Of a stretch of DNA of 63,439 nt, positions 3,901 through 59,653 are shown piece after piece. The notes beneath the pieces are model-generated. The model ran no database searches and had not been told where the DNA came from. It was given only the letters and a program-made list of their open reading frames with translations. A program made the translations under genes and the position numbers. The first letter of the stretch is position 1. Every line of letters begins with the position of its first letter. The DNA is from an uncultured Acidimicrobiaceae bacterium (GTDB lineage Bacteria; Actinomycetota; Acidimicrobiia; Spongiisociales; ZC4RG35), in NCBI GenBank assembly GCA_964645875.1, contig CAZYCX010000003.1, positions 1-63,439 of the forward strand. Reading direction: 5' to 3'.

Positions 3901-5867
3901 GACTCCTCGAGGTCGATGAGCTCGTCGTCCGGGCCGAGGACACCGAAGTCATGGACGAAGACGTCCTCTTCACCCAATAGGCTGGTGGGGACCTCCTCGA
4001 CGACCCGGAGACCCATGTCCTCCAGTGCCGGCATGAGTGCGGTCAGGTCTCTCTTGCCCTGGCCGTACAGAGTGACGCGGGTGAGTCTGGTGGAGTCCAC
4101 CGACTCGTTCTGGACTCCAACGATGAAGGGTCGATCTGCACCGGTCATCTCCTCGAGTCGCTCGATGTCACCGACAGCAACCGCCAACTCGGTAGAAGAG
4201 GTGTAGTAGGCGGGGAACCGGGACCCCCAGTGATGGACCATCTCACGGGCCTTGGTCAGACCATGGCGTTCCGACAGCACTTCGGTGAGGCGTTCGGCCC
4301 AAGAGCGGGTGATCTCCCGAACGTCGGCTTCGAGCTCGTCGTATGCGACCTCGGGGACCTGGCCCTCCTCGACCCAAACCTTGTAGTGGAGGTAGGCGAG
4401 ATCGTCCGCCTCGAGAGTCAGGTTGAAGTCCACCGACTTCCCGCTGAATTGCTCCAGGAAGAGGTCCTCGAGACGCTTGGCGAGCATCGTCGAGTAACGG
4501 TCCGACGGGATGGCAACCAGCAGCCTGGCGCTGCGGTCGAGCAGATCTCGCCTCATGAACAACTTCACCCTCGCTCGCTCCCGAAGGTCGAGGAGCCCCA
4601 TCAGCAGCGGTCGCAGGTCTTCCACCGGCACACCGAATAGGTCGTCTTTGGGGAAGCTCTCGAACAAGGAGACGATCTCTTTGTGGTCGTGGGACCCTTC
4701 GATGAGATCTTCCATCTCGGCCAACTCGTCGAGTTTGCGACGCAGGACCGGGGTGCGTGCGGACCTCTCCATGTAGGCCTTCGACGTGAACAGGCCGATC
4801 AAGCGGGCCTCGCCAACCGTCCGGCCGTCCGGTGCCACGATGCGGACGCCGACGTAGTCCATCCGAGCCCTTCGGTGGACCGTCGCCACCTCGTTGGTCT
4901 TGGAGATGACGAGAAGGTCACCGCTCTCGTATCTGGCGGCGAGTGGCGGCGGGAGGGACGAGAGCAGGGTGGGTGAAGCGGCCTTCGACTTCGTGGAGTC
5001 GGAGAGGATCCCGAGGCCCGATTCGGCGACGGATCGGATGGCACTTCCCTCGGGGAGCTCGAGAATCTCGTACTCGCGGTACCCCAAGAAGACGAAGTTG
5101 TCCTCCCGCAGCCACTCGAGGAATGCGACCGCCTCGTCGATCTCTCCCGGCGGATAATTGCCTCGACCACGTCTGACCAGTTCGATCATTCGAGGGAGCA
5201 TGCCGACCATGCGGTCGAAGTCGCCGACCGCGGCCTGCACGTCGGCGAGCACTTGCACCAACTTTGTCTGCAGATCGGAGAGATCGGCGTCGGGAAGACG
5301 CCTATCGAGCACCCAATGTTGTATCGACTCCCGGAGGTCGGAGGCACGTGCCGCACGGATATCGGTGATTCGACCTCCATCGTCACGTTGGATTCCGAGA
5401 ACGGGGTGGAGCACGCGAGCCACTTCGAGGCCGCGGGCCTGAAGTTCGCTGCCGATGGAATCGACTAGGAATGGGCTGTCGTCGACGTGAACCTCGACCA
5501 CGGTCCCGGAAGGCTCGGCCCTTGGGTTGTCGTCGGGAGGGTTGAAGGCCCGTACCGCAATCGGAGCCGAGCGACTCTCGATGAAGTCGTAGAGACCGGT
5601 GACCTCCTCGAAGAGGTCGTCGACCGACACCGTTGGATGCGGCGGTAGCCGCCTCAGGTAGCTTCTGGCGAAGAGGGAAACCAGGTCCGAGCGATCATCC
5701 GGATGATCTCTGATGCGTGCGACCACTGCTTCTACGAGTTGGTCCTCGCCTGTCGACGTCTCCGAATCCCCGCGAGCCATATCGGTCAACGTCTCATCGG
5801 CAGGTTGAGATGCTGGGATGACTCCACCACGTCCCAATACGTCTCGACGTGTGTCATGTCCAACCAC
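999..5867 (-). CDS. gdh: Large (~180 kDa class) NAD-specific glutamate dehydrogenase
   Basis: 1622-aa ORF with the Bac_GDH catalytic core (GGIRWSDRREDYRTEVLGLLKAQITKNSVIVPTGAKGGFV; GTATFSDTAN; GGSTGYDHK). The true start may be an internal Met (MARGDS...). Confidence 0.93.
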   Translation of the reverse strand: MVGHDTRRDVLGRGGVIPASQPADETLTDMARGDSETSTGEDQLVEAVVARIRDHPDDRSDLVSLFARSYLRRLPPHPTVSVDDLFEEVTGLYDFIESRSAPIAVRAFNPPDDNPRAEPSGTVVEVHVDDSPFLVDSIGSELQARGLEVARVLHPVLGIQRDDGGRITDIRAARASDLRESIQHWVLDRRLPDADLSDLQTKLVQVLADVQAAVGDFDRMVGMLPRMIELVRRGRGNYPPGEIDEAVAFLEWLREDNFVFLGYREYEILELPEGSAIRSVAESGLGILSDSTKSKAASPTLLSSLPPPLAARYESGDLLVISKTNEVATVHRRARMDYVGVRIVAPDGRTVGEARLIGLFTSKAYMERSARTPVLRRKLDELAEMEDLIEGSHDHKEIVSLFESFPKDDLFGVPVEDLRPLLMGLLDLRERARVKLFMRRDLLDRSARLLVAIPSDRYSTMLAKRLEDLFLEQFSGKSVDFNLTLEADDLAYLHYKVWVEEGQVPEVAYDELEADVREITRSWAERLTEVLSERHGLTKAREMVHHWGSRFPAYYTSSTELAVAVGDIERLEEMTGADRPFIVGVQNESVDSTRLTRVTLYGQGKRDLTALMPALEDMGLRVVEEVPTSLLGEEDVFVHDFGVLGPDDELIDLEESGHRLTEALTAVWSGETETDSLNRLVLLSGLDHAQVAILRAYLIYWRRVRPAFTINYVNETLASHPDIAERLIDLFEMRFEPDADDSGYEAARYELLGLLDDVPSLDQDRILRGVLQLIEATDRTNVYRSDRTALSFKLRSPGVPDMPAPRPFAEVFVLGRDVEGIHLRAGPVARGGIRWSDRREDYRTEVLGLLKAQITKNSVIVPTGAKGGFVLRRPPTDPDDTRREVAAAYSTFIRGLLDVTDNLLDGRVVHPDGVRVHDDDDPYLVVAADKGTATFSDTANHIAQEYDYWLDDAFASGGSTGYDHKALGITARGAWKSLERHLTELGIDPHRDTFTVAGIGDMSGDVFGNGMLGSPKLRLVAAFDHRHVFIDPAPDPAISFAERKRLFEQPFSTWADYDPKLISEGGGVHSRSAKKISLTPQAKDALGTEADTVTPADLIRIILRAPVDVLWNGGIGTYVKAVAESNADAGDRTNDNVRVNGSDLRCRVVVEGGNLGLTQRGRIEYAWSGGKINTDFIDNSGGVNCSDREVNLKILFGVARRRGLTSRDESQDLFDRVVDDVVDRILDDSLAQAHRLALEEGTSVNRLDSYEQLMSDLEDDGLLDRELESLPRSEEMTERARSERGLCRPELGVILAYAKRSLVDTLLTTNQSDPYELVRDVVDYFPGEVAARFEDLIAEHPLLRRLAATVVANELIDSQGSDFVSQLSGRTGASVPDIVRAYRIAREISGGVQRRSQIEQAFGRVDATAWSDAINDNDKLVADLTRSYVRRSEMPDAAAVAALSEGFGVLEDSGSELGPPNWALERDVRTERYVAAGFAAPMAKRLALLPDLIHAPGIIEVARQSDRPVGEVGRVFFSMSQAVRLDALGRILNGATMSDRWHRWAREDIEDDMIRAQRRLAERVLSEATESESGDEAVDSFLAAHAHGLKRVLRLTQSLESDTDHDLAYFMVILRQIEALAA

Positions 5868-10558: not shown

Positions 10559-13500
10559 GTGGCCAGTCCAGGAGGAAACCTCGCAGGAGAGCGGCGAGTC
10601 GTCACCGCCCTGTTCTGTGACGTCGTCGGCTCCACCTCGATCGCGGAGACCCTCGATCCCGAGGATTGGAGCGAGATGGTCTCCGGAGCGATCGACACCA
10701 TGGGCATGGTGATCGACCGCTTCGGAGGCACCGTCACCGATTTCGCCGGAGACGGTCTCGTCGCCCTGTTCGGAGCGCCCGTGGCCCACGAGGACGACCC
10801 CTACCGCGCGGTGAGATCCGGGCTGGCGATCGTCGAGGAGATGCGGAGCGCCCGCGCCCATGGTGGCGTGCTGGAGGTGCGCGTCGGGATCCACACCGGG
10901 CTGGTGGTCGTCGGTGACGTGACCGCAGGACACCGCAACACCTATTCGGCGCTGGGCGACACCCTCAACGTGGCCGCCCGTCTCCAGGCGGTCGCCGATC
11001 CGGGATCGGTCGTGATCTCGTCCGAGACCCGGCGTCTCCTGGGCTCCGACGTCGAGGCGAGACTGGTCGGCCCGACCGAGCTCAAAGGTCGCCAGGAGCC
11101 GGTCGTGGTCTACCAGGTGACCAGCGCCAGCGGGAGTGACCAGCGGCGACGTGGCCTTCCCGGGTTGACCAGCCCGATGGTGGGTCGGCAGAACGAGCTG
11201 GCGACGATGGAGAAACTGGCCATGGCCAGCGCCGCCGGAACCGGACGGGTCGCCGCGGTGCTGGGGGAGCCGGGGGTGGGCAAGAGCCGGCTGCTCCGCG
11301 AGGTCGGGAAGCGAGCCCGCCAATCTGAAGACACGCTTTGGGCAGTCGGCACCTGCGTCGCATTCGACGACGAGCTCCCATATCACCTGGCCAGTTCGCT
11401 GCTTCGCTCACTCGCCGGAGTCGGTTCGTCCGAGTCGCCAGAGGTCGTCGGCAAGGCCCTCGACGACCTCTTGGAGCGAGCCGAGGCGGGCGAGCATGGT
11501 GTGGCCTTGAAACGCCTCGTCGGAGTCGAGGGCGGCGACGAACAGTCGACGGCCGAGGCGTTGAGGGACGAGTACTCGAGGTGTCTCCGCGCCGTCGTAT
11601 CCGGGTTGGCGAGGAAAAACCGGCTCGTCCTGGTGTGCGAGGACGCTCACTGGGCCGATGCCTCCTCCACCGAGCTCATCGCCGACCTGATGTCGACTGT
11701 CCCTTCCCTCCCGGTGCTGATGCTCCTGGTGATGAGACCTGACCGCGGCTCAACCGGGTGGAGTCTTCTCGAGACGGCTCGTCGCGAACTGGCGGAGTCT
11801 CTCACCGAGATCCGGCTGGCCCCTCTCGACGAGGTCGACAGCCGCAACCTCGTGTCCAATCTGCTCGAGGTCGAGTCACTCCCCCCGACGTTGCGCAGGC
11901 TCGTGCTCGACAAGGCGGAGGGCAACCCTTTCTTCCTCGAAGAGGTGGTGCGGATGCTCATCGAAGGAGATCTCGTCGAGCATCGCGATGGGCGGTGGAT
12001 CGGACGCGACGACATCGGCGACCTCGACGTTCCGGAGACGATCGAAGGTCTGCTGGTCTCCCGTATCGACATGCTGGGCCCTGACTTGCGCCGAGCCGGG
12101 CGGGTGGCGTCGGTGATCGGCCGTCGTTTCACCGCACGGCTCTTCGACCAGGTATATGGCACCCGGTCCGAGGAGGAGCGTTCCAGCCTCCATCCCCATC
12201 TCGCCGGTCTCGAGTCGCACGGCATGGTCCAGCTCGAGGAGATCGATCCCGACCTGGAGTTCTCCTTCCGCCACGCCCTGATCCACGACGTCATGTACCG
12301 GGGCCTGTTGCGAAAGGAACGCCGCCAGCTCCATGGGGAAGTCGCCGCCGCGATCGAGAAGGTCCACGCCGACCGGGTCGAGGAGCTGGCACCCTCCCTC
12401 GCCCGCCACTATGCGGAAGCCGGAGTCCCTGACAAGGCGGTTCGCTACTTCTTCTCCGCCGGCCGGCACGCCCTGGCCCAGGGGGCTCGGGTCGAGGCCG
12501 CCCGGTTCTTCACCCGAGCCCAGAAGCTCCTGGAGGCCGACCCCGATTCCGATCCGAGAGACCTGATCGATGCGGTCCTCGGCCGTCTCGGTGCGGGCCG
12601 GGCATTCATCCCTGGACAGGAGGCGATCGGGCTCATCGAAGGTGTGCTTCCGACCGCCGAGGATCTCGACGACCCGAACCGACTGGCCCGGCTCTACGAG
12701 CGTCTCATCTGGACCCGCGGAATACAGGGAGAGTCGTACGCCAATCCCGAGTACCGGGCTCAACTCGACAGGGGTTATGCCCTGACCCCACGTCTCACGG
12801 ATACCGGTACGGCCGGATTGCTCCACGCCATGATGGGCGATGCGTTCCGGTCGGCCGATGAATACGAGGCGTCAGTCGAGCCACTCTCGAACGCGGTGGA
12901 CGCTCTCGAGGACGTGGGCCGGCTCAGTGAAGCCTCCTACAACGCCGCCATGCTCGCCGACTCGCTGACCCAGGTGGGCCGTTTCGAGGAGGCGATGGCG
13001 GCTGTCGACCGGTCACATGACCTGGGGGAGAGGAGCGGCGACCCGAACACGGTGGCGGACGCCGACATCATCCGCGGCTCGATCGCGGCCGATAAGGGAG
13101 ATCTCGAGGAGGCCTTGGAGTACACGAGGAGGGGCATCGAGGGCGCCGAGGAGTACGGGAACACCTTCTGCAATCTGGCCGGCAACTTCAAGCTCGCCGA
13201 TCAGCAGCTCCGCCTGGGTGACGTCGACTCGGCCATCACCCACCTGGAGAAGAGCACGGGGCTGGCCCAGTACTGCGACGCCGGAGGCTACGAGGCCCTG
13301 GGCCAGGCTTGGCTGGCCATGGCCCGGTCACGAACCGGCGACCTCCGTCCCGGAGACTTCGACGTGCCGCTGGAGAACGCCGTCGCCTCCGGCAGCCGCA
13401 GCATGGAGGGCCTGGTGCGGCTCCGACGGGCGATCGCATTCGCCGACGCGGGCCAGGGCGAGAATGCCCGTCCCGATTTCGAACGAGCGATCGAGTTGTT

Positions 13501-13663
13501 CGCCGACTATGGAGGTCTTCCCAACCTGGCTCGGGCCCACCACGCCTACGGGCAAGCCCTCGACTCGGTGGGCCGATCCGACGAGGCGGTCGTGCATCTG
13601 CGCAAGGCCGAGGAGATCTTCGAGGAGCTCGGGATCACTCCCGACCCGGTGACCGCGGCCTGA
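10559..13663 (+). CDS. Class III adenylate/guanylate cyclase - AAA/STAND ATPase - TPR multidomain protein
   Basis: Cyclase core VVTALFCDVVGSTSIAE...FAGDGLVALFGAP...VRVGIHTGLVVVGDV...GDTLNVAARL. Walker A GEPGVGKSRLL. Long helical/TPR-like C-terminus. No LuxR HTH. Confidence 0.88.
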   Translation: MASPGGNLAGERRVVTALFCDVVGSTSIAETLDPEDWSEMVSGAIDTMGMVIDRFGGTVTDFAGDGLVALFGAPVAHEDDPYRAVRSGLAIVEEMRSARAHGGVLEVRVGIHTGLVVVGDVTAGHRNTYSALGDTLNVAARLQAVADPGSVVISSETRRLLGSDVEARLVGPTELKGRQEPVVVYQVTSASGSDQRRRGLPGLTSPMVGRQNELATMEKLAMASAAGTGRVAAVLGEPGVGKSRLLREVGKRARQSEDTLWAVGTCVAFDDELPYHLASSLLRSLAGVGSSESPEVVGKALDDLLERAEAGEHGVALKRLVGVEGGDEQSTAEALRDEYSRCLRAVVSGLARKNRLVLVCEDAHWADASSTELIADLMSTVPSLPVLMLLVMRPDRGSTGWSLLETARRELAESLTEIRLAPLDEVDSRNLVSNLLEVESLPPTLRRLVLDKAEGNPFFLEEVVRMLIEGDLVEHRDGRWIGRDDIGDLDVPETIEGLLVSRIDMLGPDLRRAGRVASVIGRRFTARLFDQVYGTRSEEERSSLHPHLAGLESHGMVQLEEIDPDLEFSFRHALIHDVMYRGLLRKERRQLHGEVAAAIEKVHADRVEELAPSLARHYAEAGVPDKAVRYFFSAGRHALAQGARVEAARFFTRAQKLLEADPDSDPRDLIDAVLGRLGAGRAFIPGQEAIGLIEGVLPTAEDLDDPNRLARLYERLIWTRGIQGESYANPEYRAQLDRGYALTPRLTDTGTAGLLHAMMGDAFRSADEYEASVEPLSNAVDALEDVGRLSEASYNAAMLADSLTQVGRFEEAMAAVDRSHDLGERSGDPNTVADADIIRGSIAADKGDLEEALEYTRRGIEGAEEYGNTFCNLAGNFKLADQQLRLGDVDSAITHLEKSTGLAQYCDAGGYEALGQAWLAMARSRTGDLRPGDFDVPLENAVASGSRSMEGLVRLRRAIAFADAGQGENARPDFERAIELFADYGGLPNLARAHHAYGQALDSVGRSDEAVVHLRKAEEIFEELGITPDPVTAA

Positions 13664-30623: not shown

Positions 30624-31415
30624 TCAGCCGGCGCGGGCGGTGACCGTGACCGAGGTGGCGATACGGTCGTGGCGTGATTCGGGGACCAGCCTGCGCATCA
30701 GGTCGATGAGGTCGTCATCGAAGAGCGGATAGCCGCTGGCCTCGTCGATGCCGAATGGGACCCTTGCCACGACTTCGACATCGGTGAAACCCACCTTCTC
30801 CATTTTCGAGACGAAGACACGCTCCGCCAGGGCTCCCGACACTCACCCGGCCCAGGCCGACGGGTGCACGAGGATCTCCGATGGCAGTTCCTCCTCTTTG
30901 ATCGTCAGGTCGGATACGCACAGCCGACCACCTGGCCTCAGGATGCGTCTCGCCTCGGCGAAGACCCGGCTCTTTCGGGCGGTGAGATTGATGGTCCCGT
31001 TGGAGATGACCACGTCGGTCTCGGCGTCGTCGAAGGGCAGGTCGTCGATTTCCGCCCGGACGAATTCGACGTTCTCGTACCCCGAGTCGGCGGCGATGCG
31101 ACGAGCCCTCTGCACCATCGAGTCGAGGAAGTCGACCCCGATGACCGATCCGGCAGCACCCACCTCGTCGGAGGCGAGGAGAACGTCCATCCCCGCTCCA
31201 CAGCCGAGATCGACGACCGTCTCACCCTTCGAGAGTGCGGCATGGCGTACCGGGTCGCCCACTCCCATGGCCCACTGTCTCGCCTCCTCGGGGACGGCGG
31301 CGAGCTGCTCTGGGTCGTAGAGGCGGCCCGCCGGGTCGGCGGGGGCATCGACGGCGGTATAGGCGTCACGGACCAGAGCCTGGACCTCCTCCCTGTACAT
31401 GAGATCTCTGGTCAT
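30624..31415 (-). CDS. ArsM-fold SAM-dependent methyltransferase with in-frame TGA (30843-30845), candidate selenoprotein (MT1)
   Basis: SAM motif VVDLGCGAGMDVL and DVVISNGTINL. The two listed ORFs (30843..31415 and 30624..30842) are contiguous and in the same frame, separated only by TGA: ...HPSAWAG-TGA-VSGALAERVFVSKMEKVGFTDVEV..., which aligns to the ArsM motif W-x-G-C-[ILV]-A-G-A-L. The tail has good GC3 coding character. Confidence 0.7.
30810..30828 (-). promoter_or_regulatory. Candidate SECIS-like hairpin downstream of the MT1 UGA
   Basis: mRNA GGCGGAG-CGUGU-CUUCGUC forms 7 bp including one G-U. The apical loop starts 24 nt from the U of UGA. Confidence 0.35.
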
Positions 31416-31654
31416 CGGGCTCCGTCAGCCTCCAACTCGTCGATCAGACGCTCGAAGCGTTGCCTCAGGTCGGGAGGCATCTCGACCGTCGGTCCTCTCA
31501 TCATGAAACCTCGCATCTCCTCGGCGAACTCCATCTCCCCACAGCACCGTCGGCACAGGGCGAGATGCTGTTCGACCCTCTCCCGTTCCACGGGCTCGAC
31601 CTCCCCTTCGACGTAGTCCCACAGTTGTCTCACGGCCTCGGTGCAGTCGATCAT
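31412..31654 (-). CDS. Soluble ZAS-family (RsrA-like) anti-sigma factor
   Basis: 80 aa from MIDCTEAV. Cys4 plus H30-x3-C34-x2-C37 (HLALCRRCC). No TM segment. ATGA overlaps with the sigma gene (31651-31654) and with MT1 (31412-31415). Confidence 0.85.
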   Translation of the reverse strand: MIDCTEAVRQLWDYVEGEVEPVERERVEQHLALCRRCCGEMEFAEEMRGFMMRGPTVEMPPDLRQRFERLIDELEADGAR

Positions 31655-32235
31655 GACGGCGACTCCTCTTTCTCCCGCAGCAGGTCTCTCTCCTCCGCGT
31701 AATCCCACAGTTCCTTCTCGAAGAACTTCCGGCCGCGATGCAGCCATGACAACACCGTGTTGCGGGGCGCTCCCAGCATCCGGGACACGGATTCGACGTC
31801 GAGGCCCTCCATGTGTACCAGGACCAATGGGACGCGGTACATCGGTTTGATCCGGTCGAGAACCGCCCAGACATCTTCCTCTGAGAACGAGTGGAGGAAG
31901 TCGACGTGGACGGTGTCCGAGTACGGCCAGGGATCCTCGTCGGCGATGGTTCGATAGAGCGAGTACCCCGAAATGTCCTCCACGGGTGTCTCGTCCGGCC
32001 CGCTCGACTCGCGTCTGAAGCTGTCCCGAGCGCAGTTCACCAGGATGGTCCTGAACCAGCCCGGCGCCGCTTCGAGGTCACGCAGGTCGTCGAACGCCTG
32101 ATAGGCCTTGATCAGGCACTCCTGGACCACATCCTCGGCCCTGGGGCCGCTGAGACGGCGCGCCAGCGCGTAGAGCCAGGGAAGCTGTTGGCGAGCCACC
32201 TGCTGGAAGCTGGTCCCTTCCGAGCTCATCGCCAT
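31651..32235 (-). CDS. ECF-type RNA polymerase sigma-70 family factor
   Basis: Region 2 (AEDVVQECLIKAYQAF...WFRTILVNCARDSFRR) and region 4 (VPLVLVHMEGLDVESVSRMLGAPRNTVLSWLHRGRK). Confidence 0.9.
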   Translation of the reverse strand: MAMSSEGTSFQQVARQQLPWLYALARRLSGPRAEDVVQECLIKAYQAFDDLRDLEAAPGWFRTILVNCARDSFRRESSGPDETPVEDISGYSLYRTIADEDPWPYSDTVHVDFLHSFSEEDVWAVLDRIKPMYRVPLVLVHMEGLDVESVSRMLGAPRNTVLSWLHRGRKFFEKELWDYAEERDLLREKEESPS

Positions 32236-32244
32236 GCCACGACC

Positions 32245-33048
32245 CTAGGCAAGCGAGTCGGGCCGGTTGGGGCGTCGACCTCGAATCGGAACGCCGAAGG
32301 TTCCGTATTTCTTGGCTCTGGCCTCCCCCGGGGCACCACCGAAAGTGTCCACCCTGGGGCCGAACTCGACACCGACCAGGCCTGCTCTCTCGATCGTCGC
32401 CTTCCACCCTGCACCCGGCAGGGCACCGGCGATTCAGCCAGTCCAGAGATCGATGTCCCTCTGGGCTTCCTCCGGAATGGGCTTTTCGACCACGATGTCG
32501 GCGATCTGGAACCATCCCCCCGGTCTGAGGACTCGCATCACCTCTCGATAGGCACCGAGCTTGTCCGGCACCAGGTTGAGGACCCCGTTGGAAATGACCA
32601 CGTCGACGGACTCGTCCTCGATCGGTAGGTCCTCGGCCAGCCCCTGCCGGAATTCGAGGTTCTCCAGGCCCATCATCTTCGCGGCGTCACCGGCGCGATC
32701 GAGCATGTCGGGGGTCATGTCCACCCCGATCACTTCTCCGTTGGTGCCGACAGCGCGCGCCGCGATCACCGAGTCGAGCCCACCACCCGCGCCGACGTCG
32801 ACCACCGTGGCGTCTTCCGGGGGCAGACCCCAATGAAACGGGTTGGCGACTCCGGCGAAGGCCTCCATCACCCGGTCGGGAATGCCCTCGAGGGACGCAA
32901 CCGGGTATCCGATGTGATCCAGGGCCTTCTTCCCGGTGAAGAAGTGGTACTCGGCCGACGGCTGGGTGGCCACCTCCCGGTACTTGGCTTGGATGCCCTC
33001 CCTGAGGAGGTCTTCATCGACCACGGCTGCCTTCGCGTGCTCGATCAT
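32245..33048 (-). CDS. ArsM-fold SAM-dependent methyltransferase with in-frame TGA (32434-32436), candidate selenoprotein (MT2)
   Basis: VVDVGAGGGLDSV and DVVISNGVLNL. Read through, the sequence is ...RDIDLWTG-TGA-IAGALPGAGWKATIERAGLVGVEFGPRVDTFGGAPGEARAKKYGTFGV... ending at TAG 32245-32247, in frame (189 nt after the TGA). That stop is only 9 nt before the sigma start. Confidence 0.7.
32405..32425 (-). promoter_or_regulatory. Candidate SECIS-like hairpin downstream of the MT2 UGA
   Basis: mRNA UGCCCUG-CCGGGUG-CAGGGUG forms 7 bp including two G-U. The apical loop starts 18 nt from the U of UGA. Confidence 0.35.
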
Positions 33049-33124: not shown

Positions 33125-33514
33125 TCACGTCCGGCCCATCAGCCGGTCGACGGTGATCTCGATGGCGACCCGATCGGGGTTCTCCCGCGCCGGGCGATAA
33201 CGGGCCTCGAATCCACTCACCGCTCTCGCTATCCCGTCAGGATCCCGTACCACCCGCGCCTCGCCCTCGAGGGTGAGCCACCGTGGCCCGTCGACCTGGC
33301 AAACCGCGACGCGACCGTGCCTTTCGGTGTTCTTGACCTTCTGCGTATTGTCCGAGCTGATGATCCGGACCAATCCGGCATCGGCGTCGTAGGCGAATGC
33401 GACGGCGACGACATGGGGAGTCCCGTCCGGGCGGATCGTGGTCAGAGTGCCCAGGTGACGCTCCGAAAGGAACGCCTTCTCGGTGTCGGTCAGGTCGGCG
33501 GTCGTTCTCGGCAT
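33125..33514 (-). CDS. PPOX-class (pyridoxamine 5-phosphate oxidase fold) probable F420/FMN-dependent protein
   Basis: FLSERHLGTLTTIRPDGTPHVVAVAFAYD...VRIISSDNTQKVKN...RVAVCQVDGPRWLTLEGEARV. Start set at MPRTTADL (ATG 33514). Confidence 0.8.
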   Translation of the reverse strand: MPRTTADLTDTEKAFLSERHLGTLTTIRPDGTPHVVAVAFAYDADAGLVRIISSDNTQKVKNTERHGRVAVCQVDGPRWLTLEGEARVVRDPDGIARAVSGFEARYRPARENPDRVAIEITVDRLMGRT

Positions 33515-34480: not shown

Positions 34481-35686
34481 GTGTCGGACCTACGCGCCGT
34501 TACGGTCGTCCCGTCAGCTCGAAGGATCGAGACTTTGGAGCTATCGGCCGCAAGCTTCTCCTACCCGGAACACGACGGCGCCACCCGCGCCGAGATCGCA
34601 GGGTCGCTGCTCCGCGGAGCCGGCCCGAAGGAGGGATTCGTGCTCTCCACTTGCATCCGCGTCGAAGTCGCAGTGCCCGGGTCGGACGAACAACTCAGAG
34701 ACGCCCTGACCGATCTCTTCGGAGAGGGGATGGATGTAGCGCCGCAGATCCGGGTGGGCGAGGCGGCGGCGACCCATCTCTATCGCATCGCCGCCGGTCT
34801 GGAATCCCCCATCCTCGGGGAGCAGGAGATCCTCACCCAGTTCCGACAGACCCTGATCGAGGCCGAGGAGGCCGGTCGGGTCGGGGGCCTGTTCGCCCGT
34901 CTCCTCGAGTCGGCCGTGTCGGTGGGGCGCCAGGCGCGGGAGCTCATCCCCGGCTCCCCCCACAACTCGATGGCGGCCGTCGCCGCCCAGGCGGTCGGCA
35001 CCGCCAACCGGGTGGCAGTCCTCGGCTCGGGGATCATGGCCACGGCGGTGGTGGAGGGCCTGTTGCTCCTGCCCGCGCCTCCCCTGGTCACCGTGGTGGC
35101 GCGTCACCCGGAGAAGGTGGCGGACCGGGACGGGGTCGAGGTGCTCCCCTTCGAGCGCGCCCGATCGGTGATAGAGGAGTTTCCCGCGGTCATATCCGCA
35201 ACCTCCGCCAAACATCGGCTCGTGGACGATCGCGCCCTCTCCGAGGCGATGTCCCGACGTCGGGATCGGCTGCTGCTGATCGACATGGCGATGCCTCCCG
35301 ACTTCAAGCCCATGGTCGAAGACGACGTCACCTACATCGCCATAGACGACCTGGCCCGCATGGCCGATCGCCGACCCCGCACGGACGAGGCCGACGCGTT
35401 CGTCGAGTCGGCGGCGACCGATGCCTACCGAAACTATCGGGAGCATCACGAGGTCGGCCCCCTCATCGGTGGTCTGATGAGCACCGCCGACGAGATAGTC
35501 GACAATGCGGTACGGCGGTTCTCCGGCCGTCTCGGAGACCCGGACGACGAAGCGGTCCTCCGTCAATCGGCGCACACGGTGGCCCGCACGCTGCTCGCCG
35601 GGCCCGTTTCCTATTTGAAGGCCGCTGGCCGGGCCCCCGAGGCCATCGAAGTCATCGCCGACGCATTCGGCGTCGACGATGGCTGA
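34481..35686 (+). CDS. hemA: Glutamyl-tRNA reductase
   Basis: VLSTCIRVEV (catalytic Cys), LESPILGEQEILTQFR, NADPH Rossmann motif VAVLGSGIMA. GTG start. Confidence 0.9.
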   Translation: MSDLRAVTVVPSARRIETLELSAASFSYPEHDGATRAEIAGSLLRGAGPKEGFVLSTCIRVEVAVPGSDEQLRDALTDLFGEGMDVAPQIRVGEAAATHLYRIAAGLESPILGEQEILTQFRQTLIEAEEAGRVGGLFARLLESAVSVGRQARELIPGSPHNSMAAVAAQAVGTANRVAVLGSGIMATAVVEGLLLLPAPPLVTVVARHPEKVADRDGVEVLPFERARSVIEEFPAVISATSAKHRLVDDRALSEAMSRRRDRLLLIDMAMPPDFKPMVEDDVTYIAIDDLARMADRRPRTDEADAFVESAATDAYRNYREHHEVGPLIGGLMSTADEIVDNAVRRFSGRLGDPDDEAVLRQSAHTVARTLLAGPVSYLKAAGRAPEAIEVIADAFGVDDG

Positions 35687-36536
35687 TCTGAGGATCGCCA
35701 CTCGTGGCTCCGACCTCGCCATGGCTCAGGCGCGCTGGGTGGCCGGGAGTCTCGAGGCTGCTCATCTTGGCCTGGAGACCACGCTCGTCGAGGTGTCGAC
35801 CACCGGGGATCGCGACCGGGTCTCGCCGGTCGCCACGCTCACAGAGGTGGGAGCTTTCGTGCGTGCCGTGCAGCAGGCGGTCCTCGAGGGGAGGGCCGAC
35901 GTCGGGGTGCACTCCTGCAAGGACCTCCCGGTCGACGGTCCTGGTGGCCTCACCGTTTTCTACCCAGAGCGCGAGGCGCCGTGGGACGTGATGTGCGGAC
36001 ACGACCTCGAGTCGCTGCCGACCGGTGCGAGAGTGGGCACCGGAAGCCCTCGTAGAGCCGCACAGTTGAAGGCTCTGCGTCCGGACCTGGTCGTCGCCGA
36101 CATTCGCGGAAACGTGGGCACACGTCTTGAGAAGATGGAGACGGGCGAATACGAAGCAGTGGTGCTCGCCGAGGCTGGGCTGCGACGACTCGGCCGTACC
36201 GGTGAGATCACGCACCGTTTCACGCTCGCCGAGATGGTCCCCGCGCCCGGCCAGGCAGCGCTGGCGGTGGAGGGACGTCGCGACGATCCGTTGCTCGACC
36301 TGCTGACAGCGATCGACGACCCTGAGACCCGACTCACCGTCGAGACCGAGCGGTCACTGCTGGGTAACACCCGTGCCGGGTGCCGCTCGGCCCTGGGTGC
36401 ACTGGCCGAGGTCCAGGAGGGCTCTATTCGAATCACCGGCTTCGTCGAGGACGAGGCGGGCTCTCGTTACGCAGTTGCCGAAGGGGCCACCCCCGAATCG
36501 GCAGCGCGGGCACTGCAGGAGGGACTGGGGCTGTGA
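35679..36536 (+). CDS. hemC: Hydroxymethylbilane synthase (porphobilinogen deaminase)
   Basis: LRIATRGSDLAMAQA, VHSCKDLP, GTGSPRRAAQL, IRGNVGTRL. 8-nt overlap with hemA. Confidence 0.93.
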   Translation: MADLRIATRGSDLAMAQARWVAGSLEAAHLGLETTLVEVSTTGDRDRVSPVATLTEVGAFVRAVQQAVLEGRADVGVHSCKDLPVDGPGGLTVFYPEREAPWDVMCGHDLESLPTGARVGTGSPRRAAQLKALRPDLVVADIRGNVGTRLEKMETGEYEAVVLAEAGLRRLGRTGEITHRFTLAEMVPAPGQAALAVEGRRDDPLLDLLTAIDDPETRLTVETERSLLGNTRAGCRSALGALAEVQEGSIRITGFVEDEAGSRYAVAEGATPESAARALQEGLGL

Positions 36537-53524: not shown

Positions 53525-54928
53525 TTACTTGGTGCGCCAGGACCCCTGGGCGTAGCCCTCGCGTGCGTCCCTCGAGAACGGAGTGGGCGCCACCCGGACC
53601 CTGATCTCGGTCTGCTCGTGCGACTCCACCGTGGTCTTTGCCGTCCCGCCGTCCTCCTCGCCCCACACCAGGGTGAGCTGGTCGCCCTCTTCGATGTCGG
53701 GGCCGACCACTCCGAGTGAGAGGAAGGCACGGTCGTTGAACGTGTACCCGCTGAACATCGAGAAGCCGACATGGCCCCCGTCGTCGTCGACCACCTTGTC
53801 GTAGGTGGCCGACGTGTAGTTGGAGAGGGGGAGATCGATGTACTTGATGTTCTCTCCGGGGGCGTTGAACATCGAGCGCCACACCTCCACCACATCGTCG
53901 GTGTTCCACTCGAAGGTCACCTTCTTGCGATGCTCTTGGTCGTGGGTCTTCTCGAGGGCGTCACGGCCGATGAAGTCGTGGTCGAACTTCACGTAGAAGC
54001 CATAGCCGAGCTCGTAGGGGGTCAGGTAGTAGTCCTCGATGTCGTCGGACACGAAGCTCCCTCCGATCGACCCCGCCGCCTCATAGGAGTCCCCCGGGAG
54101 CCACTCCCGGTAAGCCTTCATCTCGTCCCCCGAGTAGACGGCGGGCAGCGGCGAGGGGATCCATCCCGATTCGAGCGTGTTGGTGGCGTAGGCGCGTGAT
54201 CCCACCGGCACCAGCCCGAACTCGGCTCCGGCTTCGAGGATGGCGCTGCGGATCTCCTCGCCCTGCTCATAGGGGCCCCAGATCTCCATGCCGGGCGCAC
54301 CGGCCATGCCGTGGTGGAACGCCGGGACCTCGCGGCCGGCGACCTTCATCGTGCCCACGTTGAAGAACTTCACGTCGGGTATCGGCCCACCGTTGAGCTT
54401 CTCCAGGACCTTCATCGCGTTCGGTCCCTGGATCTGATACCGATAGTGACGTCGGACCACAGGCTGACCCATGGGACGGGCGGGTGACCTGTCGTCCCTT
54501 TCCAGCTCGACGTCCCAGTCGCCGGTCTCGGCATGGAACTGGACCCAGTTCACCGTGGGTACCCGTCCCACCATGTTGAACTTCTCGTCCTCGGGACGGA
54601 ACAGGATCACGTCTCCGATGACGTGCCCGCCGTAGCTGGTGGGGACGAAGTGCTTCGCCCTGGTGGTGGGGAAGTTGGCGAAGCTGTTTATGGCCAGCGA
54701 CGAGAGCAGTGCTTCCGCTTCGGGTCCCTCCACCGTCAGCTCGGCCATGTGATGCGACTGATCGAAGAGGACCGCGGTCTCCCGCCAGGCTCTCTGCTCG
54801 TCGCGCCAGTTGCTGAACTCGGAGGGGACGACCGGATACACATAGGCTCCGATCGGGGAGTTGCGCAACATCGAGACGACGTTGTCGGTGGACTGGAGAA
54901 CGTCTTCGAGGCTCTGATGGTGGGTCAC
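53525..54928 (-). CDS. GcvT/aminomethyltransferase-family tetrahydrofolate-dependent demethylase (LigM/DesA-like), paralogue 1
   Basis: About 467 aa. FSNWRDEQRAWRETAVLFDQSHHM, EGPEAEALL, FHHGMAGAPGMEIWGP. GTG 54928 is preceded by gaggaga. Confidence 0.8.
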   Translation of the reverse strand: MTHHQSLEDVLQSTDNVVSMLRNSPIGAYVYPVVPSEFSNWRDEQRAWRETAVLFDQSHHMAELTVEGPEAEALLSSLAINSFANFPTTRAKHFVPTSYGGHVIGDVILFRPEDEKFNMVGRVPTVNWVQFHAETGDWDVELERDDRSPARPMGQPVVRRHYRYQIQGPNAMKVLEKLNGGPIPDVKFFNVGTMKVAGREVPAFHHGMAGAPGMEIWGPYEQGEEIRSAILEAGAEFGLVPVGSRAYATNTLESGWIPSPLPAVYSGDEMKAYREWLPGDSYEAAGSIGGSFVSDDIEDYYLTPYELGYGFYVKFDHDFIGRDALEKTHDQEHRKKVTFEWNTDDVVEVWRSMFNAPGENIKYIDLPLSNYTSATYDKVVDDDGGHVGFSMFSGYTFNDRAFLSLGVVGPDIEEGDQLTLVWGEEDGGTAKTTVESHEQTEIRVRVAPTPFSRDAREGYAQGSWRTK

Positions 54929-54968
54929 TTGGGTCTCCTCACACTGGCGACGTCCACCGATCATACGT

Positions 54969-54985
54969 ACTGAACGTTGTTCAGT
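54969..54985. promoter_or_regulatory. Inverted repeat ACTGAAC-gtt-GTTCAGT in the divergent promoter region
   Basis: 7-bp perfect arms with a 3-nt spacer, 41 nt upstream of the demethylase start and ~36 nt upstream of the riboswitch. Confidence 0.35.
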
Positions 54986-55020
54986 GTCTCTTCTCGCCGG
55001 CAGGCTCTTGTATCCTCACG

Positions 55021-55123
55021 GTGGTCATCTAGAGCGGCCGAGGGACAGGCCCGACGAAGCCGCGGCAACCACTCACCGGCGAGAAGGTGCCAATGCCTGA
55101 TCGATGATGACGTCGATGAGGTG
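55021..55123 (+). promoter_or_regulatory. SAM-I (S-box) riboswitch
   Basis: TCATC-T-AGAG-C-GGCC-GAGGGA-CA-GGCCC-GA-CGAA-GCCGC-GGCAACC...GGTGCCAATGCC...GATGA matches the SAM-I core (AGAGnGG..GAGGGA..GGCCC..UGAA.CC..GCAACC..GGUGCcAAuuCC). P2 is GCGGC/GCCGC. P1 is UCAUC/GAUGA. The P1 3-prime strand runs into the SD GAGGTG, 6 nt before ATG 55129. Confidence 0.85.
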
Positions 55124-55128
55124 AACGT

Positions 55129-56277
55129 ATGGCCCGTGGTCAGGTGAACGAACCGGTCGGTGGGGAGATCGATCGGTTCTTCGACAATCGCGCCGCCTAT
55201 CTGATGTTCACGACCGCCACCAACGAGAAGGCGGTGGTCGCGGAGCGGATCGGCGCGGAGCTCGACCTGATCGGGCCGGGAGAGTCAGCCCTGAGAGTGT
55301 TCGACGCCGGCATGGGCGATGCTTCGGTGTTGAGCCAGCTGATGCGTCGCATGCACACCGTGTTCCCGCACATCCCCTGGCTGGTGGTCGCCAAGGAGAT
55401 CTCGATCGAAGACCTCCGGTTGGCTTTGGGCCGGATGCCGGACCGGCTCTTCGAGCATCCCGAGATGGTCCTGGTGGTGACCAACATGAACTATCGGGAG
55501 GCTCCCGCGTTGGTCCCGGTTGGGGACAACGCCTCCCAACTGAACTGGATCGAAGCTCCGCTCGAAGGCTCCACCGCCGACGACTTCGGCCGGCAGATCC
55601 ACGACCTCTTCGACGACCTGGCGCGTGCCTGGGAAGTGGTCACCAGCCCCAAGACCGGCAACCCCCTCTATGCCACGCCCTCGGCGCTGGTGGTCTACCG
55701 CCGTGATCGCCAGTTCATCCTGAAGCGGGTGATCCCCGAGCCGGGCGGGATCGAGGGTCGTTACGACCTCGTTGTCGCCTCGCAGCCCTACCGGGCCCGG
55801 ACCAGCGCCGAGAGGAAGACGCGGACGGTGCTGGTTCCCTTGTCCCGGGCGCTCGCTCCCGGCGGTCGCCTGGTGGTGGTCCATGCCCACGGCAACGACC
55901 CCGGTCTCGAGATCATCCGCAACGTCTGGCCGGGCGAGGACCCGTTCCAGACCGGGCGTGCAGACCTGTTGGCCGAGGCACAACGCCAACTCACCGATCC
56001 CGAGGACGCCGCTTTGGTGTATCCCCACCTCAGCGACGAGGAGGCGATCTTCCGTTACGAACTCCACGCGATGCCCTCCGAGAGGACGGAGCACATCGGG
56101 ACCGGCCTGACCCTCGCCGCCTGGAACGCCGCCGCCTACGTTGCCCAGATAGACGAGTCCCGGCTCTCTGCTGCCATGGCCTCCGGCGTCTACGTGGAGG
56201 CGACCCGGGAGGTCCTGGCGCGCTACGGAGGGGTCTGGTTCAACGACGAGGCGTACGTGATCACCCGCTCAGTGTGA
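55129..56277 (+). CDS. Uncharacterised protein with class I methyltransferase-fold motifs, under SAM-I riboswitch control
   Basis: 382 aa. LRVFDAGMGDASV (motif I-like) and YDLVVASQPY...LAPGGRLVVVHAHG (post-motif-like), separated by a long insertion. Family not recognised. Confidence 0.8.
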   Translation: MARGQVNEPVGGEIDRFFDNRAAYLMFTTATNEKAVVAERIGAELDLIGPGESALRVFDAGMGDASVLSQLMRRMHTVFPHIPWLVVAKEISIEDLRLALGRMPDRLFEHPEMVLVVTNMNYREAPALVPVGDNASQLNWIEAPLEGSTADDFGRQIHDLFDDLARAWEVVTSPKTGNPLYATPSALVVYRRDRQFILKRVIPEPGGIEGRYDLVVASQPYRARTSAERKTRTVLVPLSRALAPGGRLVVVHAHGNDPGLEIIRNVWPGEDPFQTGRADLLAEAQRQLTDPEDAALVYPHLSDEEAIFRYELHAMPSERTEHIGTGLTLAAWNAAAYVAQIDESRLSAAMASGVYVEATREVLARYGGVWFNDEAYVITRSV

Positions 56278-56358
56278 CTGGACGCTCTCCAGCCGGCACG
56301 TGGCGAATCCCCTAGATAGGATCCACCAGAGTGTCCAGGGACGTTTACCGGGGCCTGC

Positions 56359-56388
56359 TTGACACTCTCGCAATCTGAACCGTACTGT
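56359..56388 (+). promoter_or_regulatory. Sigma-70-like promoter candidate for the TRAP genes
   Basis: TTGACA (56359-56364), 18-nt spacer, TACTGT (56383-56388), ~70 nt upstream of GTG 56460. Confidence 0.3.
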
Positions 56389-56459
56389 TTGCGTACGCAG
56401 GCCGCACATTTGTTCGTTATTCGGACAGATGGGGCAGGACCTAATGAGGAGGAAGAGAC

Positions 56460-57605: not shown

Positions 57606-57621
57606 TCCGTAGAAGCGAAGC

Positions 57622-57656
57622 GGAGGTGGTGACCGTCTTGTACGGTCACCACCTCT
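57622..57656 (+). terminator. Perfect 14-bp stem-loop between dctP and dctQ (attenuator or mRNA-stabilising hairpin)
   Basis: gaggtggtgaccgt-cttgt-acggtcaccacctc followed by tgttg, 17 nt after the dctP stop. Confidence 0.55.
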
Positions 57657-57746
57657 GTTGATTGCCGGGGCTCTCTCTGCGGTTCCCGGCCGGTGTGAAG
57701 GAGGGTCAGCCTGGAGCCATCTGCCGACGATCGGACCCCGGACCAA

Positions 57747-59590: not shown

Positions 59591-59653
59591 CCCCCTTCGT
59601 TTTCGCGACAGGCCCCAAACGCGCCACTCGATGCGCGAAAAACGGTTGGTGGG

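What the first reader, a model, noticed from the sequence alone, without database searches (positions are those of the whole stretch)
30810..30845. In-frame TGA at the conserved-Cys position of methyltransferase MT1, with a downstream hairpin
The ORFs 30843..31415 and 30624..30842 are contiguous in one frame and separated only by TGA 30843-30845. The junction reads HPSAWAG-[TGA]-VSGALAERV. Canonical arsenite methyltransferases have W/Y-x-G-C-[ILV]-A-G-A-L here, and that Cys is one of the metalloid-binding cysteines (Cys224 in CmArsM). The 72 codons after the TGA keep the GC3 bias and the expected ArsM C-terminal-domain character (KVGFTDVEV...). A hairpin GGCGGAG-CGUGU-CUUCGUC places its G/U-containing apical loop 24 nt from the UGA, within the range expected for bacterial SECIS elements. 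TGA is used as a normal stop throughout this window (many ATGA junctions), so this would be site-specific recoding to selenocysteine, not a variant genetic code.
Basis: partly seen in the sequence, partly recalled or inferred. Interest (0 to 1): 0.85.

Follow-up and report, generated by a model that had tools for sequence, protein, structure and literature searches.

The report
Selenocysteine codon in ArsM-like methyltransferase
The in-frame TGA is almost certainly a genuine selenocysteine codon, read with the help of a conserved RNA hairpin, in an arsenite-methyltransferase-like enzyme of an Acidimicrobiia bacterium; this selenoprotein family has been known since 2007, so it is a sound but not novel find.

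Summary
MT1 (30624..31415, minus strand) has a TGA at 30843-30845. This aligns with the metalloid-binding Cys224 of solved ArsM structures.

- **Sec/Cys pattern:** all 13 close homologues stop at ...WAG, and 104 of 107 full-length relatives have Cys there.
- **Translation past the TGA:** in 109 unique TGA-form sequences the frame stays open for 71-76 more codons (108 of 109).
- **Hairpin:** It is 100% paired, and one pair shows G-C, A-U and G-U but never A-C.
- **Second gene:** paralogue MT2 (32245..33048), 1.6 kb upstream, has a TGA at the same column and its own covarying hairpin.
- **Sec machinery:** none is in the window. One relative carries selD-selA-selB beside the gene pair, and another carries tRNA-Sec.

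The family (ArsM, UxxG motif) is an established selenoprotein family. Three points go beyond that. Both proteins lack the other two catalytic ArsM cysteines. MT1 lies in a conserved ECF sigma / anti-sigma operon. Public annotations truncate these genes.

The parts
30624..31415 (-). MT1: complete ArsM-like SAM-dependent methyltransferase selenoprotein gene. It has 190 codons, then Sec-UGA, then 72 codons, then a TGA stop at 30624-30626.
   Evidence: frame; NF008823 at 221 bits; alignment to PDB 5evj and the CmArsM chain (4fr0 family) runs across the TGA column; downstream part open and under purifying selection.
30843..30845 (-). Sec-UGA codon of MT1, in the motif WAG-U-VSG (UxxG).
   Evidence: It aligns with Cys224 of CmArsM. 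Homologues have only TGA, TGC or TGT here.
30810..30828 (-). MT1 bSECIS-type hairpin: a 7-bp stem GGCGGAG/CUUCGUC with a 5-nt loop CGUGU (30817..30821), 21 nt after the UGA.
   Evidence: third-position entropy 0.00-0.21 against 1.2-1.9 bits elsewhere; CGT in 109/109; pair 2: GC 46, AU 34, GU 29, AC 0; 100% paired against 35-66% in slid controls; RNAalifold predicts the same hairpin; unique in the window.
32245..33048 (-). MT2: paralogous ArsM-like methyltransferase selenoprotein gene. It has 204 codons, then Sec-UGA, then 62 codons, then a TAG stop at 32245-32247.
   Evidence: The 76 close homologues end in W[T/A/S]G. All 44 full-length homologues have Cys at the column.
32434..32436 (-). Sec-UGA codon of MT2, in the motif WTG-U-IAG (UxxG).
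32397..32432 (-). MT2 bSECIS-type hairpin. The upper stem is 32406..32424 (GCCCUGC/GCAGGGU) with loop CGGGU, 16 nt after the UGA. The window sequence adds a lower stem CGCCG/GGCGA.
   Evidence: -21.9 kcal/mol, z = -1.7; 99.1% paired against 25-49% in slid controls; compensatory CG<->GC in 4 and CG<->UA in 5 sequences.
31651..32235 (-). ECF-type sigma factor between MT2 and MT1.
   Evidence: Sigma70_r2 and r4_2; present upstream of MT1 in 70/72 Sec-form loci.
31412..31654 (-). zf-HC2 (ZAS-type, HxxxCxxC) anti-sigma factor. Its start overlaps the sigma gene's stop (ATGA), and its stop overlaps the MT1 start (ATGA).
   Evidence: PF13490, 40.7 bits; 70/72.
33125..33514 (-). PNPOx-like flavoprotein gene immediately upstream of MT2. 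Its membership of the module is uncertain.
   Evidence: It is conserved next to MT2 in L001 and L207 but replaced by an OsmC-like gene in L209.

Best explanation
MT1 is a single gene for a protein of about 263 residues, an ArsM-like SAM-dependent methyltransferase. Residue 191 is selenocysteine, encoded by UGA 30843-30845.

Proposed mechanism: when the ribosome reaches the UGA, a 19-nt hairpin 15-33 nt downstream (7-bp stem, loop CGUGU) acts as a bacterial SECIS. It recruits SelB-GTP-Sec-tRNA(Sec), so Sec is inserted instead of termination. The Sec takes the place of the metalloid-binding Cys224 of ArsM.

MT2, 1.6 kb upstream, is recoded in the same way through a different hairpin. MT1 is the third gene of an operon of ECF sigma, ZAS-type anti-sigma and MT1.

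Shown here: the conserved TGA, the Sec/Cys alternation, translation of the downstream part, RNA-level selection and covariation in both hairpins, and Sec machinery in relatives.

Inferred: SelB binding, actual Se incorporation, and the substrate of the enzyme.
For: - **Sec/Cys pair.** For MT1, 13/13 close homologues end in WAG and 104/107 full-length ones have Cys. For MT2 the counts are 76 truncated and 44/44 Cys.
- **Codon at the column.** In all fetched DNA it is TGA 145, TGC 38, TGT 12, and never TAA or TAG. Seven reference genomes from four lineages carry TGA.
- **Position in the fold.** The column aligns with the catalytic Cys of solved ArsM structures, and the alignment continues past it.
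- **Downstream translation.** The frame is open for 71-76 codons in 108/109 unique sequences. pN/pS is 0.63 downstream and 0.64 upstream.
- **Hairpin under selection.** Synonymous divergence falls from 0.57 to 0.048 inside the hairpin. The rare CGT Arg codon is used in 109/109. A·C is never seen at the variable pair, against about 14 expected. The closing pair changes G-C to C-G in 2 sequences. RNAalifold predicts the same hairpins independently. Fifty Cys-form genes show no such freezing of synonymous sites.
- **bSECIS criteria.** Loop size, stem length, G at loop position 2 and the 16-37 nt spacing (PMC13188914) are met by both hairpins.
- **Sec machinery in relatives.** selD (370 bits, cutoff 125), selA (476, cutoff 268) and selB (261, cutoff 242) converge on the MT1-MT2 pair in L008. 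tRNA-Sec lies on the same 5.8-kb contig as an MT1-type gene in L178.
- **Not a variant code.** TGA ends 40/53 window genes.
Against: - No selA, selB, selC or selD is in the 63-kb window, and the rest of this genome could not be searched.
- The window's MT1 hairpin is weak on its own: -6.1 to -7.3 kcal/mol, just short of the -7.5 cutoff in the bSECIS model, and it is not distinguishable from shuffled sequence.
- Five of the seven MT1 stem pairs never vary, so they say nothing about pairing as such.
- The metagenome sample was chosen with a pattern that fixed the amino acids of the 5' arm. Third positions and the whole 3' arm were left free.
- No Rfam model recognises the hairpins.
- No protein-level evidence exists.
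Confidence: 0.93

Rival explanations
1. SelB-independent read-through: the UGA is decoded by a near-cognate or suppressor tRNA (Trp, Cys or Gly). The hairpin only slows termination and no selenium is involved.
For: The window's own genome has not been shown to have Sec machinery. The MT1 hairpin is short and thermodynamically weak.
Against: The column alternates strictly with Cys, which is the signature of Sec. Both hairpins meet the bSECIS geometry, including G at loop position 2. Relatives with the same genes have selDAB next to them and tRNA-Sec nearby. The family is a documented selenoprotein family (PMC13188914, PMC2398784).
Confidence: 0.03
2. Two separate products: a 190-aa truncated methyltransferase ends at TGA, and a 72-aa peptide is re-initiated at the adjacent GTG (TGA-GTG coupling).
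For: The codon after the TGA is GTG in the window and in 76/109 relatives. Gene callers annotate it this way.
Against: Codon +1 is GTA, CTG, CTC or ATN in many orthologues. It is ATC/ATT/ATA in every MT2, and none of those three is a start codon. The catalytic Cys column would be lost. The fold of solved ArsM structures runs continuously across the junction. The frozen hairpin would have no explanation.
Confidence: 0.02
3. A pseudogene or an assembly error: a nonsense mutation inactivated the methyltransferase.
For: A single in-frame stop in a single sequence would be compatible with this.
Against: The same TGA is found in seven independent assemblies of this same sequence and in 109 unique orthologous sequences. 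Selection is purifying downstream. The paralogue has the identical feature. No TAA or TAG is ever seen at the column.
Confidence: 0.01

Closest known systems
Arsenite methyltransferase selenoprotein family (PRK11873 / NF008823, Sec motif UxxG). It is credited to Fomenko et al. 2007, Science 315:387, in PMC13188914 and is listed in the GOS selenoproteome (PMC2398784).
   Same: It has the same domain family as best NCBIfam hit, the same Sec position and the same UxxG motif (U-V-S-G and U-I-A-G). The Sec replaces the C-terminal metalloid-binding Cys.
   Different: MT1 and MT2 score below the NF008823 cutoff (221 and 200 bits against 263). They lack the two other catalytic cysteines. They occur as a linked pair, and MT1 sits in an ECF sigma / anti-sigma operon in Acidimicrobiia and other Actinomycetota. 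I could not retrieve the family's representative sequence to compare it directly.
Canonical As(III) SAM methyltransferases ArsM/AS3MT with solved structures (the CmArsM chains of the 4fr0 family, 5eg5 and 4kw7; a second arsenite methyltransferase chain, 5evj)
   Same: They share the Rossmann SAM-binding fold and the C-terminal domain. The alignment covers residues 18-225 of MT1, and the GxC(L/I/V)xGAL motif is conserved.
   Different: Cys174 (VISNC) is Gly (VISNG). Cys72 (YGCG) is Val. The proteins are about 110-125 residues shorter than the solved chains (377-387 residues). The one remaining Cys is Sec. Whether arsenite is the substrate is therefore unproven.
NCBIfam 'exception' models for ArsM-fusion selenoproteins: ArsM_AhpD_UU (NF041537), ArsM_DUF2284_UU (NF041536) and MTase_UXPK_star (NF047649). 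They are credited to Haft & Tolstoy 2025 in PMC13188914.
   Same: The N-terminal methyltransferase domain carries UxxG Sec at the same place (157-220 bits over the methyltransferase domain).
   Different: MT1 and MT2 have no second domain and no second Sec. Their scores are far below the cutoffs of 460-575 bits.
Bacterial SECIS consensus model (Zhang & Gladyshev bSECIS, as summarised in PMC13188914). The E. coli fdhF element is the paradigm (my own knowledge).
   Same: The hairpin lies inside the coding sequence just after the UGA. It has a small apical loop with G at position 2 followed by U or G, a 7-8 bp upper stem, and 16-21 nt between the UGA and the loop.
   Different: The sequence is unrelated to the E. 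coli elements. The MT1 version is minimal (19 nt, about -6 to -7 kcal/mol). No Rfam model matches it.
SigR-RsrA type ECF sigma / ZAS anti-sigma pairs (thiol-oxidative stress sensing in Actinobacteria; my own knowledge)
   Same: The anti-sigma has a zf-HC2 domain with HxxxCxxC and is translationally coupled to an ECF sigma.
   Different: No test of orthology to SigR/RsrA was made. A selenoprotein methyltransferase as the conserved third gene is not, to my knowledge, a described feature.

Membership tests
Bacterial selenoprotein gene (Sec-UGA plus bSECIS) | The in-frame UGA aligns with Cys in homologues (Sec/Cys pair) | tested here: met
   MT1: 104/107 Cys. MT2: 44/44 Cys. The close relatives end at the column in every case, and wherever their DNA was read the codon is TGA.
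Bacterial selenoprotein gene (Sec-UGA plus bSECIS) | The sequence downstream of the UGA is conserved as protein | tested here: met
   It is open for 71-76 codons in 108/109 sequences, and its pN/pS equals that of the upstream part.
Bacterial selenoprotein gene (Sec-UGA plus bSECIS) | Hairpin with a 3-9 nt loop, a 4-16 bp upper stem, G in loop position 1 or 2, and 16-37 nt from the UGA | tested here: met
   MT1: loop CGUGU, 7 bp, 21 nt. MT2: loop CGGGU, 7-8 bp, 16 nt. Criteria are taken from PMC13188914.
Bacterial selenoprotein gene (Sec-UGA plus bSECIS) | Hairpin MFE of -7.5 kcal/mol or lower | tested here: inconclusive
   The window's MT1 hairpin gives -6.1 (core) to -7.3 kcal/mol, and the family consensus gives -9.2. 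MT2 gives -12.1 to -19.1, which meets the criterion.
Bacterial selenoprotein gene (Sec-UGA plus bSECIS) | selA, selB, selC and selD in the same genome | not testable with these tools
   None is in the window and the rest of the genome is not available. In relatives, selDAB lies next to the pair in L008 and tRNA-Sec is on L178.
Bacterial selenoprotein gene (Sec-UGA plus bSECIS) | Selenium is actually incorporated at the UGA | not testable with these tools
   This needs 75Se labelling or mass spectrometry.
Arsenite methyltransferase ArsM (NF008823 / PRK11873) | Score above the curated family cutoff | tested here: not met
   MT1 scores 221.1 bits and MT2 199.8 bits, against a cutoff of 263. It is the best hit for MT1 and third-best for MT2.
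Arsenite methyltransferase ArsM (NF008823 / PRK11873) | Cys224 equivalent (GxC[LIV]xGAL) | tested here: met
   It is present as Sec.
Arsenite methyltransferase ArsM (NF008823 / PRK11873) | Cys174 equivalent (VISNC) | tested here: not met
   It is VISNG in MT1 and MT2, in 100/107 Cys-form MT1 relatives, and in 110/120 MT2 relatives.
Arsenite methyltransferase ArsM (NF008823 / PRK11873) | Cys72 equivalent (YGCG) | tested here: not met
   MT1 has MGVGDP and MT2 has AGVANP.
Arsenite methyltransferase ArsM (NF008823 / PRK11873) | As(III) methylation activity | not testable with these tools
   This needs an enzyme assay.
ArsM-fusion double/triple selenoproteins (NF041536, NF041537, NF047649) | A second domain (DUF2284, AhpD or UXPK-star) with additional Sec, and a score above the cutoff | tested here: not met
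   Scores are 157-220 bits against cutoffs of 460-575, and only the methyltransferase domain matches. The 72- and 62-residue tails have no Pfam family and no further TGA.
ZAS-type anti-sigma / ECF sigma pair | zf-HC2 domain with HxxxCxxC next to an ECF sigma (regions 2 and 4) | tested here: met
   (PF13490 40.7 bits; PF04542 45.5; PF08281 32.3). The motif H30-x3-C34-x2-C37 was read.

The most novel reading that the evidence does not exclude
The ECF sigma / ZAS anti-sigma / MT1(Sec) operon, with the linked MT2(Sec), may be an undescribed stress module of soil and aquatic Actinomycetota. In it, ArsM-like enzymes keep only one active-site chalcogen (Sec) and lack the other two As(III)-binding cysteines. 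They would then act on something other than arsenite, for example selenium or tellurium species, methylarsenite or a thiol-reactive electrophile. Possibly they work as an MT1-MT2 heterodimer that supplies two Sec ligands, under a redox-sensing anti-sigma. In some lineages the module lies next to the sel operon.
Probability: 0.3. Interest if true: 0.55.

Novelty: new member of a known kind. Interest (0 to 1): 0.35.

Why it matters
The practical point is annotation. Gene callers and public records split or truncate these genes. Examples are the 190-aa plus 72-aa calls and the NCBI name 'methyltransferase domain-containing protein'. As a result, two selenoproteins per genome are missed in a widespread group of Acidimicrobiia and other Actinomycetota. 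More than 100 distinct metagenomic variants turned up in one capped scan.

The data also give two clean, comparatively validated SECIS hairpins for high-GC Actinomycetota. These could be used to train SECIS and selenoprotein predictors.

On the biology, a single-Sec ArsM-like enzyme that lacks the other catalytic cysteines, wired to an ECF sigma / ZAS anti-sigma pair, raises a testable question about its substrate and regulation. The existence of Sec in this enzyme family is not new.

Tried and rejected
- **Single-sequence folding** of the regions after the TGA gave no significant z-scores for MT1. The hairpin could only be established by comparison.
- **Rfam** at gathering and at permissive thresholds found no SECIS family, only chance hits.
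- **ARAGORN and Rfam** found no tRNA-Sec in the window. NCBIfam scans of the 20 largest window genes found no selA, selB or selD.
- **The window's own species** is not among the GTDB representative genomes scanned; the best MT1 match is 64% identical. A whole-genome check was therefore impossible.
- **On L178** the 456-aa ORF next to tRNA-Sec looked like SelA by size, but it is a LipJ-like hydrolase/cyclase.
- **Two of my regexes were too strict.** The Cys-form control first gave only 3 sequences and was redone with 50. The MT2 full-length column search first gave 43 'nomatch' and was redone by alignment, giving 44/44 Cys.
- **pN/pS values are rough.** They come from ungapped comparisons with saturated synonymous sites. 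They are used only to show that the upstream and downstream parts behave alike.
The identifications rest on NCBIfam.
- **Haft & Tolstoy 2025 (PMC12013261) is not held** in the library. I could not check whether this particular subfamily or operon is described there.
- **Rejected readings:** a variant genetic code (TGA is the main stop), a pseudogene, and re-initiation.

Full report
**1. The observation**

On the minus strand, the ORF 30846..31415 (190 codons) ends in TGA at 30843-30845. The same frame runs on for 72 codons to a TGA at 30624-30626, and the junction reads HPSAWAG-TGA-VSGALAERV.

Codon-position GC is the same on both sides: 0.72/0.46/0.82 before and 0.68/0.43/0.82 after. Only this frame of the downstream piece has that signature.

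I scanned all 290 in-frame stops in six frames that are open for at least 50 codons on each side. Only this one lies in a sense frame with coding-like composition on both flanks. Two other hits I judge to be antisense artefacts. TGA is the normal stop here, ending 40 of 53 gene calls.

The hairpin GGCGGAG-CGUGU-CUUCGUC lies at 30810..30828. The motif TGA-N14-hairpin is unique in the window, with 0.01 expected by chance.

**2.

The paralogue MT2 lies 1.6 kb upstream. It has 204 codons (32437..33048), then a TGA at 32434-32436 in the same motif (DIDLWTG-TGA-IAGALPG), then 62 more codons to a TAG at 32245-32247. A GC-rich hairpin with a CGGGU loop starts 4 nt after its UGA.

**3. What homologues show**

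- **MT1.** The 13 closest database proteins (65-100% identity) are 185-191 residues long and all end in ...WAG. Of 107 full-length relatives (about 264 residues, about 50% identity), 104 have Cys at the next position.
- **MT2.** The 76 truncated relatives end in W[T/A/S]G. All 44 full-length relatives have Cys at the column.
- **DNA of reference genomes.** TGA occupies the column in seven genomes: unclassified Actinomycetota MAGs, a MAG labelled Pseudonocardiaceae, Nitriliruptoraceae, two Gaiellaceae and Ca. Fervidifonticultor. Five of them carry both paralogues, each with TGA.
- **All fetched loci.** The column reads TGA 145, TGC 38, TGT 12, and never TAA or TAG.

**4. Is the tail translated, and is the hairpin real?**

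I scanned the metagenome collection with a pattern that fixed W-A-G-TGA-x-[AS]-G-A-L-[AT]-E-R but left the third codon positions free. It returned 120 loci before hitting its cap. Together with the reference-genome loci and the window, these gave 109 unique regions.

- The frame stays open for 71-76 codons in 108 of them.
- Third-position entropy is 1.2-1.9 bits at most codons of the gene but 0.00-0.21 bits in codons +5 to +11. All 109 use the rare CGT Arg codon.
- Synonymous divergence is 0.57 in both flanks and 0.048 inside the hairpin. pN/pS is 0.63 downstream and 0.64 upstream.
- Fifty Cys-form genes show no such freeze.
At its one freely variable pair the counts are G-C 46, A-U 34, G-U 29 and A·C 0, against about 14 A·C expected. 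The closing pair switches G-C to C-G in two sequences.
- On a 42-sequence alignment every cell is paired, against 35-66% when the 3' partner is slid by 1-3 columns. RNAalifold predicts the same seven pairs.
- For MT2 (16 sequences), 99.1% of cells are paired against 25-49% in the slid controls. Two pairs show full compensatory changes: CG to GC in 4 sequences and CG to UA in 5.

*Caveats.* The search pattern fixed the amino acids of the MT1 5' arm, but not the third positions or the 3' arm. The eight sequences found independently by protein similarity show the same hairpin. Five of the seven MT1 pairs never vary.

**5. The bSECIS criteria**

The criteria come from PMC13188914: a 3-9 nt loop, a 4-16 bp upper stem, G in loop position 1 or 2, 16-37 nt from the UGA, and MFE of -7.5 kcal/mol or lower.

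| Criterion | MT1 | MT2 |
|---|---|---|
| Loop | CGUGU (5 nt) | CGGGU (5 nt) |
| Upper stem | 7 bp | 7-8 bp |
| Spacing from UGA | 21 nt | 16 nt |
| MFE (kcal/mol) | -6.1 to -7.3 in the window; -9.2 for the consensus | -12.1 to -19.1 |

MT1 is marginal on energy only. MT2 meets every criterion.

**6. Sec machinery**

None is in the window. The rest of the genome was not available.

In L008, a reference Actinomycetota MAG with both TGA genes, the pair is followed convergently by selB, selA and selD. All three score above the curated cutoffs: 261 against 242, 476 against 268, and 370 against 125.

L178, a 5.8-kb metagenomic contig with an MT1-type TGA gene, carries tRNA-Sec. ARAGORN reports anticodon TCA and Rfam RF01852 scores 74.8 bits.

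The window itself is from an Acidimicrobiia bacterium. Its HemB is 98% identical to that of an NCBI Acidimicrobiia MAG, and the contig L207 is syntenic with it. A 2026 preprint reports universal Sec machinery in one order of that class (doi 10.64898/2026.04.03.716425).

**7. What the protein is**

The best NCBIfam hit for MT1 is arsenite methyltransferase NF008823, followed by the curated ArsM-fusion selenoprotein models. For MT2 those fusion models score slightly higher than NF008823. All are below their cutoffs.

Alignment to solved ArsM structures places the TGA on the Cys224 column of CmArsM and continues past it. However, the Cys174 equivalent is Gly (VISNG) and the Cys72 equivalent is Val in both paralogues. 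The same Gly at the Cys174 position is seen in nearly all of their Cys-form relatives. The window's MT2 has no cysteine at all.

These are therefore ArsM-like enzymes with a single active-site Sec. Their substrate is an inference, not a result.

**8. Genomic context**

MT1's start overlaps the stop of a zf-HC2 anti-sigma with an HxxxCxxC motif. The start of that anti-sigma overlaps the stop of an ECF sigma.

In 70 of 72 Sec-form MT1 loci with at least 900 nt of upstream sequence, both regulators sit directly upstream on the same strand. MT2 is linked to MT1 in 16-20 loci, in several different arrangements.

**9. Comparison with what is known**

Arsenite methyltransferase with a UxxG Sec motif is listed among the experimentally verified prokaryotic selenoproteins, credited to Fomenko et al. 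2007 (PMC13188914). It also appears in the GOS selenoproteome with 8 Sec forms and 245 Cys forms (PMC2398784). NCBI curates three ArsM-fusion selenoprotein models.

The mechanism and the family are therefore established. This is a new member, or at most a subfamily, with an unreported operon context. Public annotation misses it.

**10. Verdict**

The novelty class is 'new member of a known kind' and the interest is modest, at 0.35.

The rivals are non-Sec read-through, re-initiation, and a pseudogene or assembly error. Together they carry roughly 0.06.

Noticed in passing
window 32245..33048 (-), TGA at 32434-32436: A second ArsM-like methyltransferase (MT2) has an in-frame TGA at the same Cys column and its own covarying SECIS-type hairpin at 32397..32432. 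It was not part of the finding as given.
   Followed up: yes
window 31412..32235 (-): An ECF sigma and a zf-HC2 (HxxxCxxC) anti-sigma are translationally coupled to MT1 through ATGA overlaps. This sigma / anti-sigma / MT1(Sec) order is kept in 70 of 72 Sec-form loci with enough upstream sequence.
   Followed up: partly
L008 11727..16161 (-): A selD-selA-selB operon, with all three genes above the NCBIfam cutoffs, converges on the MT1-MT2 pair in an Actinomycetota MAG. SelD there is the Cys form (GAGCACK).
   Followed up: yes
L178 100..192 (+) and about 4850..5671 (-): tRNA-Sec (ARAGORN; Rfam 74.8 bits) lies on the same 5.8-kb metagenomic contig as an MT1-type TGA gene. The neighbouring 456-aa ORF is LipJ-like, not SelA.
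   Followed up: yes
window MT1 and MT2; proteins P0006-P0120 and P0121-P0240: Both paralogues and nearly all their Cys-form relatives have VISNG instead of the ArsM VISNC. Both paralogues also have Val at the ArsM Cys72 position. The window's MT2 contains no cysteine at all. Some MT2 orthologues have U-x5-C, and the Cys forms carry extra Cys at -8 and +6.
   Followed up: partly
L207 11653..12444; L001 to L006; P0123, P0129, P0159, P0165: Public gene calls split MT1 into 190-aa and 72-aa genes and truncate MT2. NCBI names the truncated forms 'methyltransferase domain-containing protein', so the selenoproteins are missed in deposited Acidimicrobiia MAGs.
   Followed up: partly
window 55022..55110 (+) and 55129..56277 (+): A SAM riboswitch (RF00162, 72.7 bits) lies directly upstream of a 382-aa ORF that matches no NCBIfam or Pfam family.
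   Followed up: no
window 53525..61036: Two tetrahydrofolate-dependent aromatic O-demethylases flank a DctP/DctM TRAP transporter. One is LigM-like (719 bits) and one is DesA-like (790 bits). This suggests catabolism of lignin-derived methoxylated aromatics.
   Followed up: no
window 999..5867 (-) and 10559..13663 (+): A 1622-aa large NAD-specific glutamate dehydrogenase, and a 1034-aa adenylate/guanylate cyclase-AAA_16-TPR signalling protein.
   Followed up: no
window 36354..36356 (-) and 59275..59277 (-): Two other in-frame stops have coding-like GC3 on both sides. The first lies antisense to the gene call at 35679..36536(+). The second has antisense-type base composition (low GC at codon position 1). 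I take both to be composition artefacts, not recoding candidates.
   Followed up: partly
window 33125..33514 (-); L209 282..848: A PNPOx-like flavoprotein gene sits just upstream of MT2 in the window, L001 and L207. In L209 an OsmC-like gene occupies that place.
   Followed up: no
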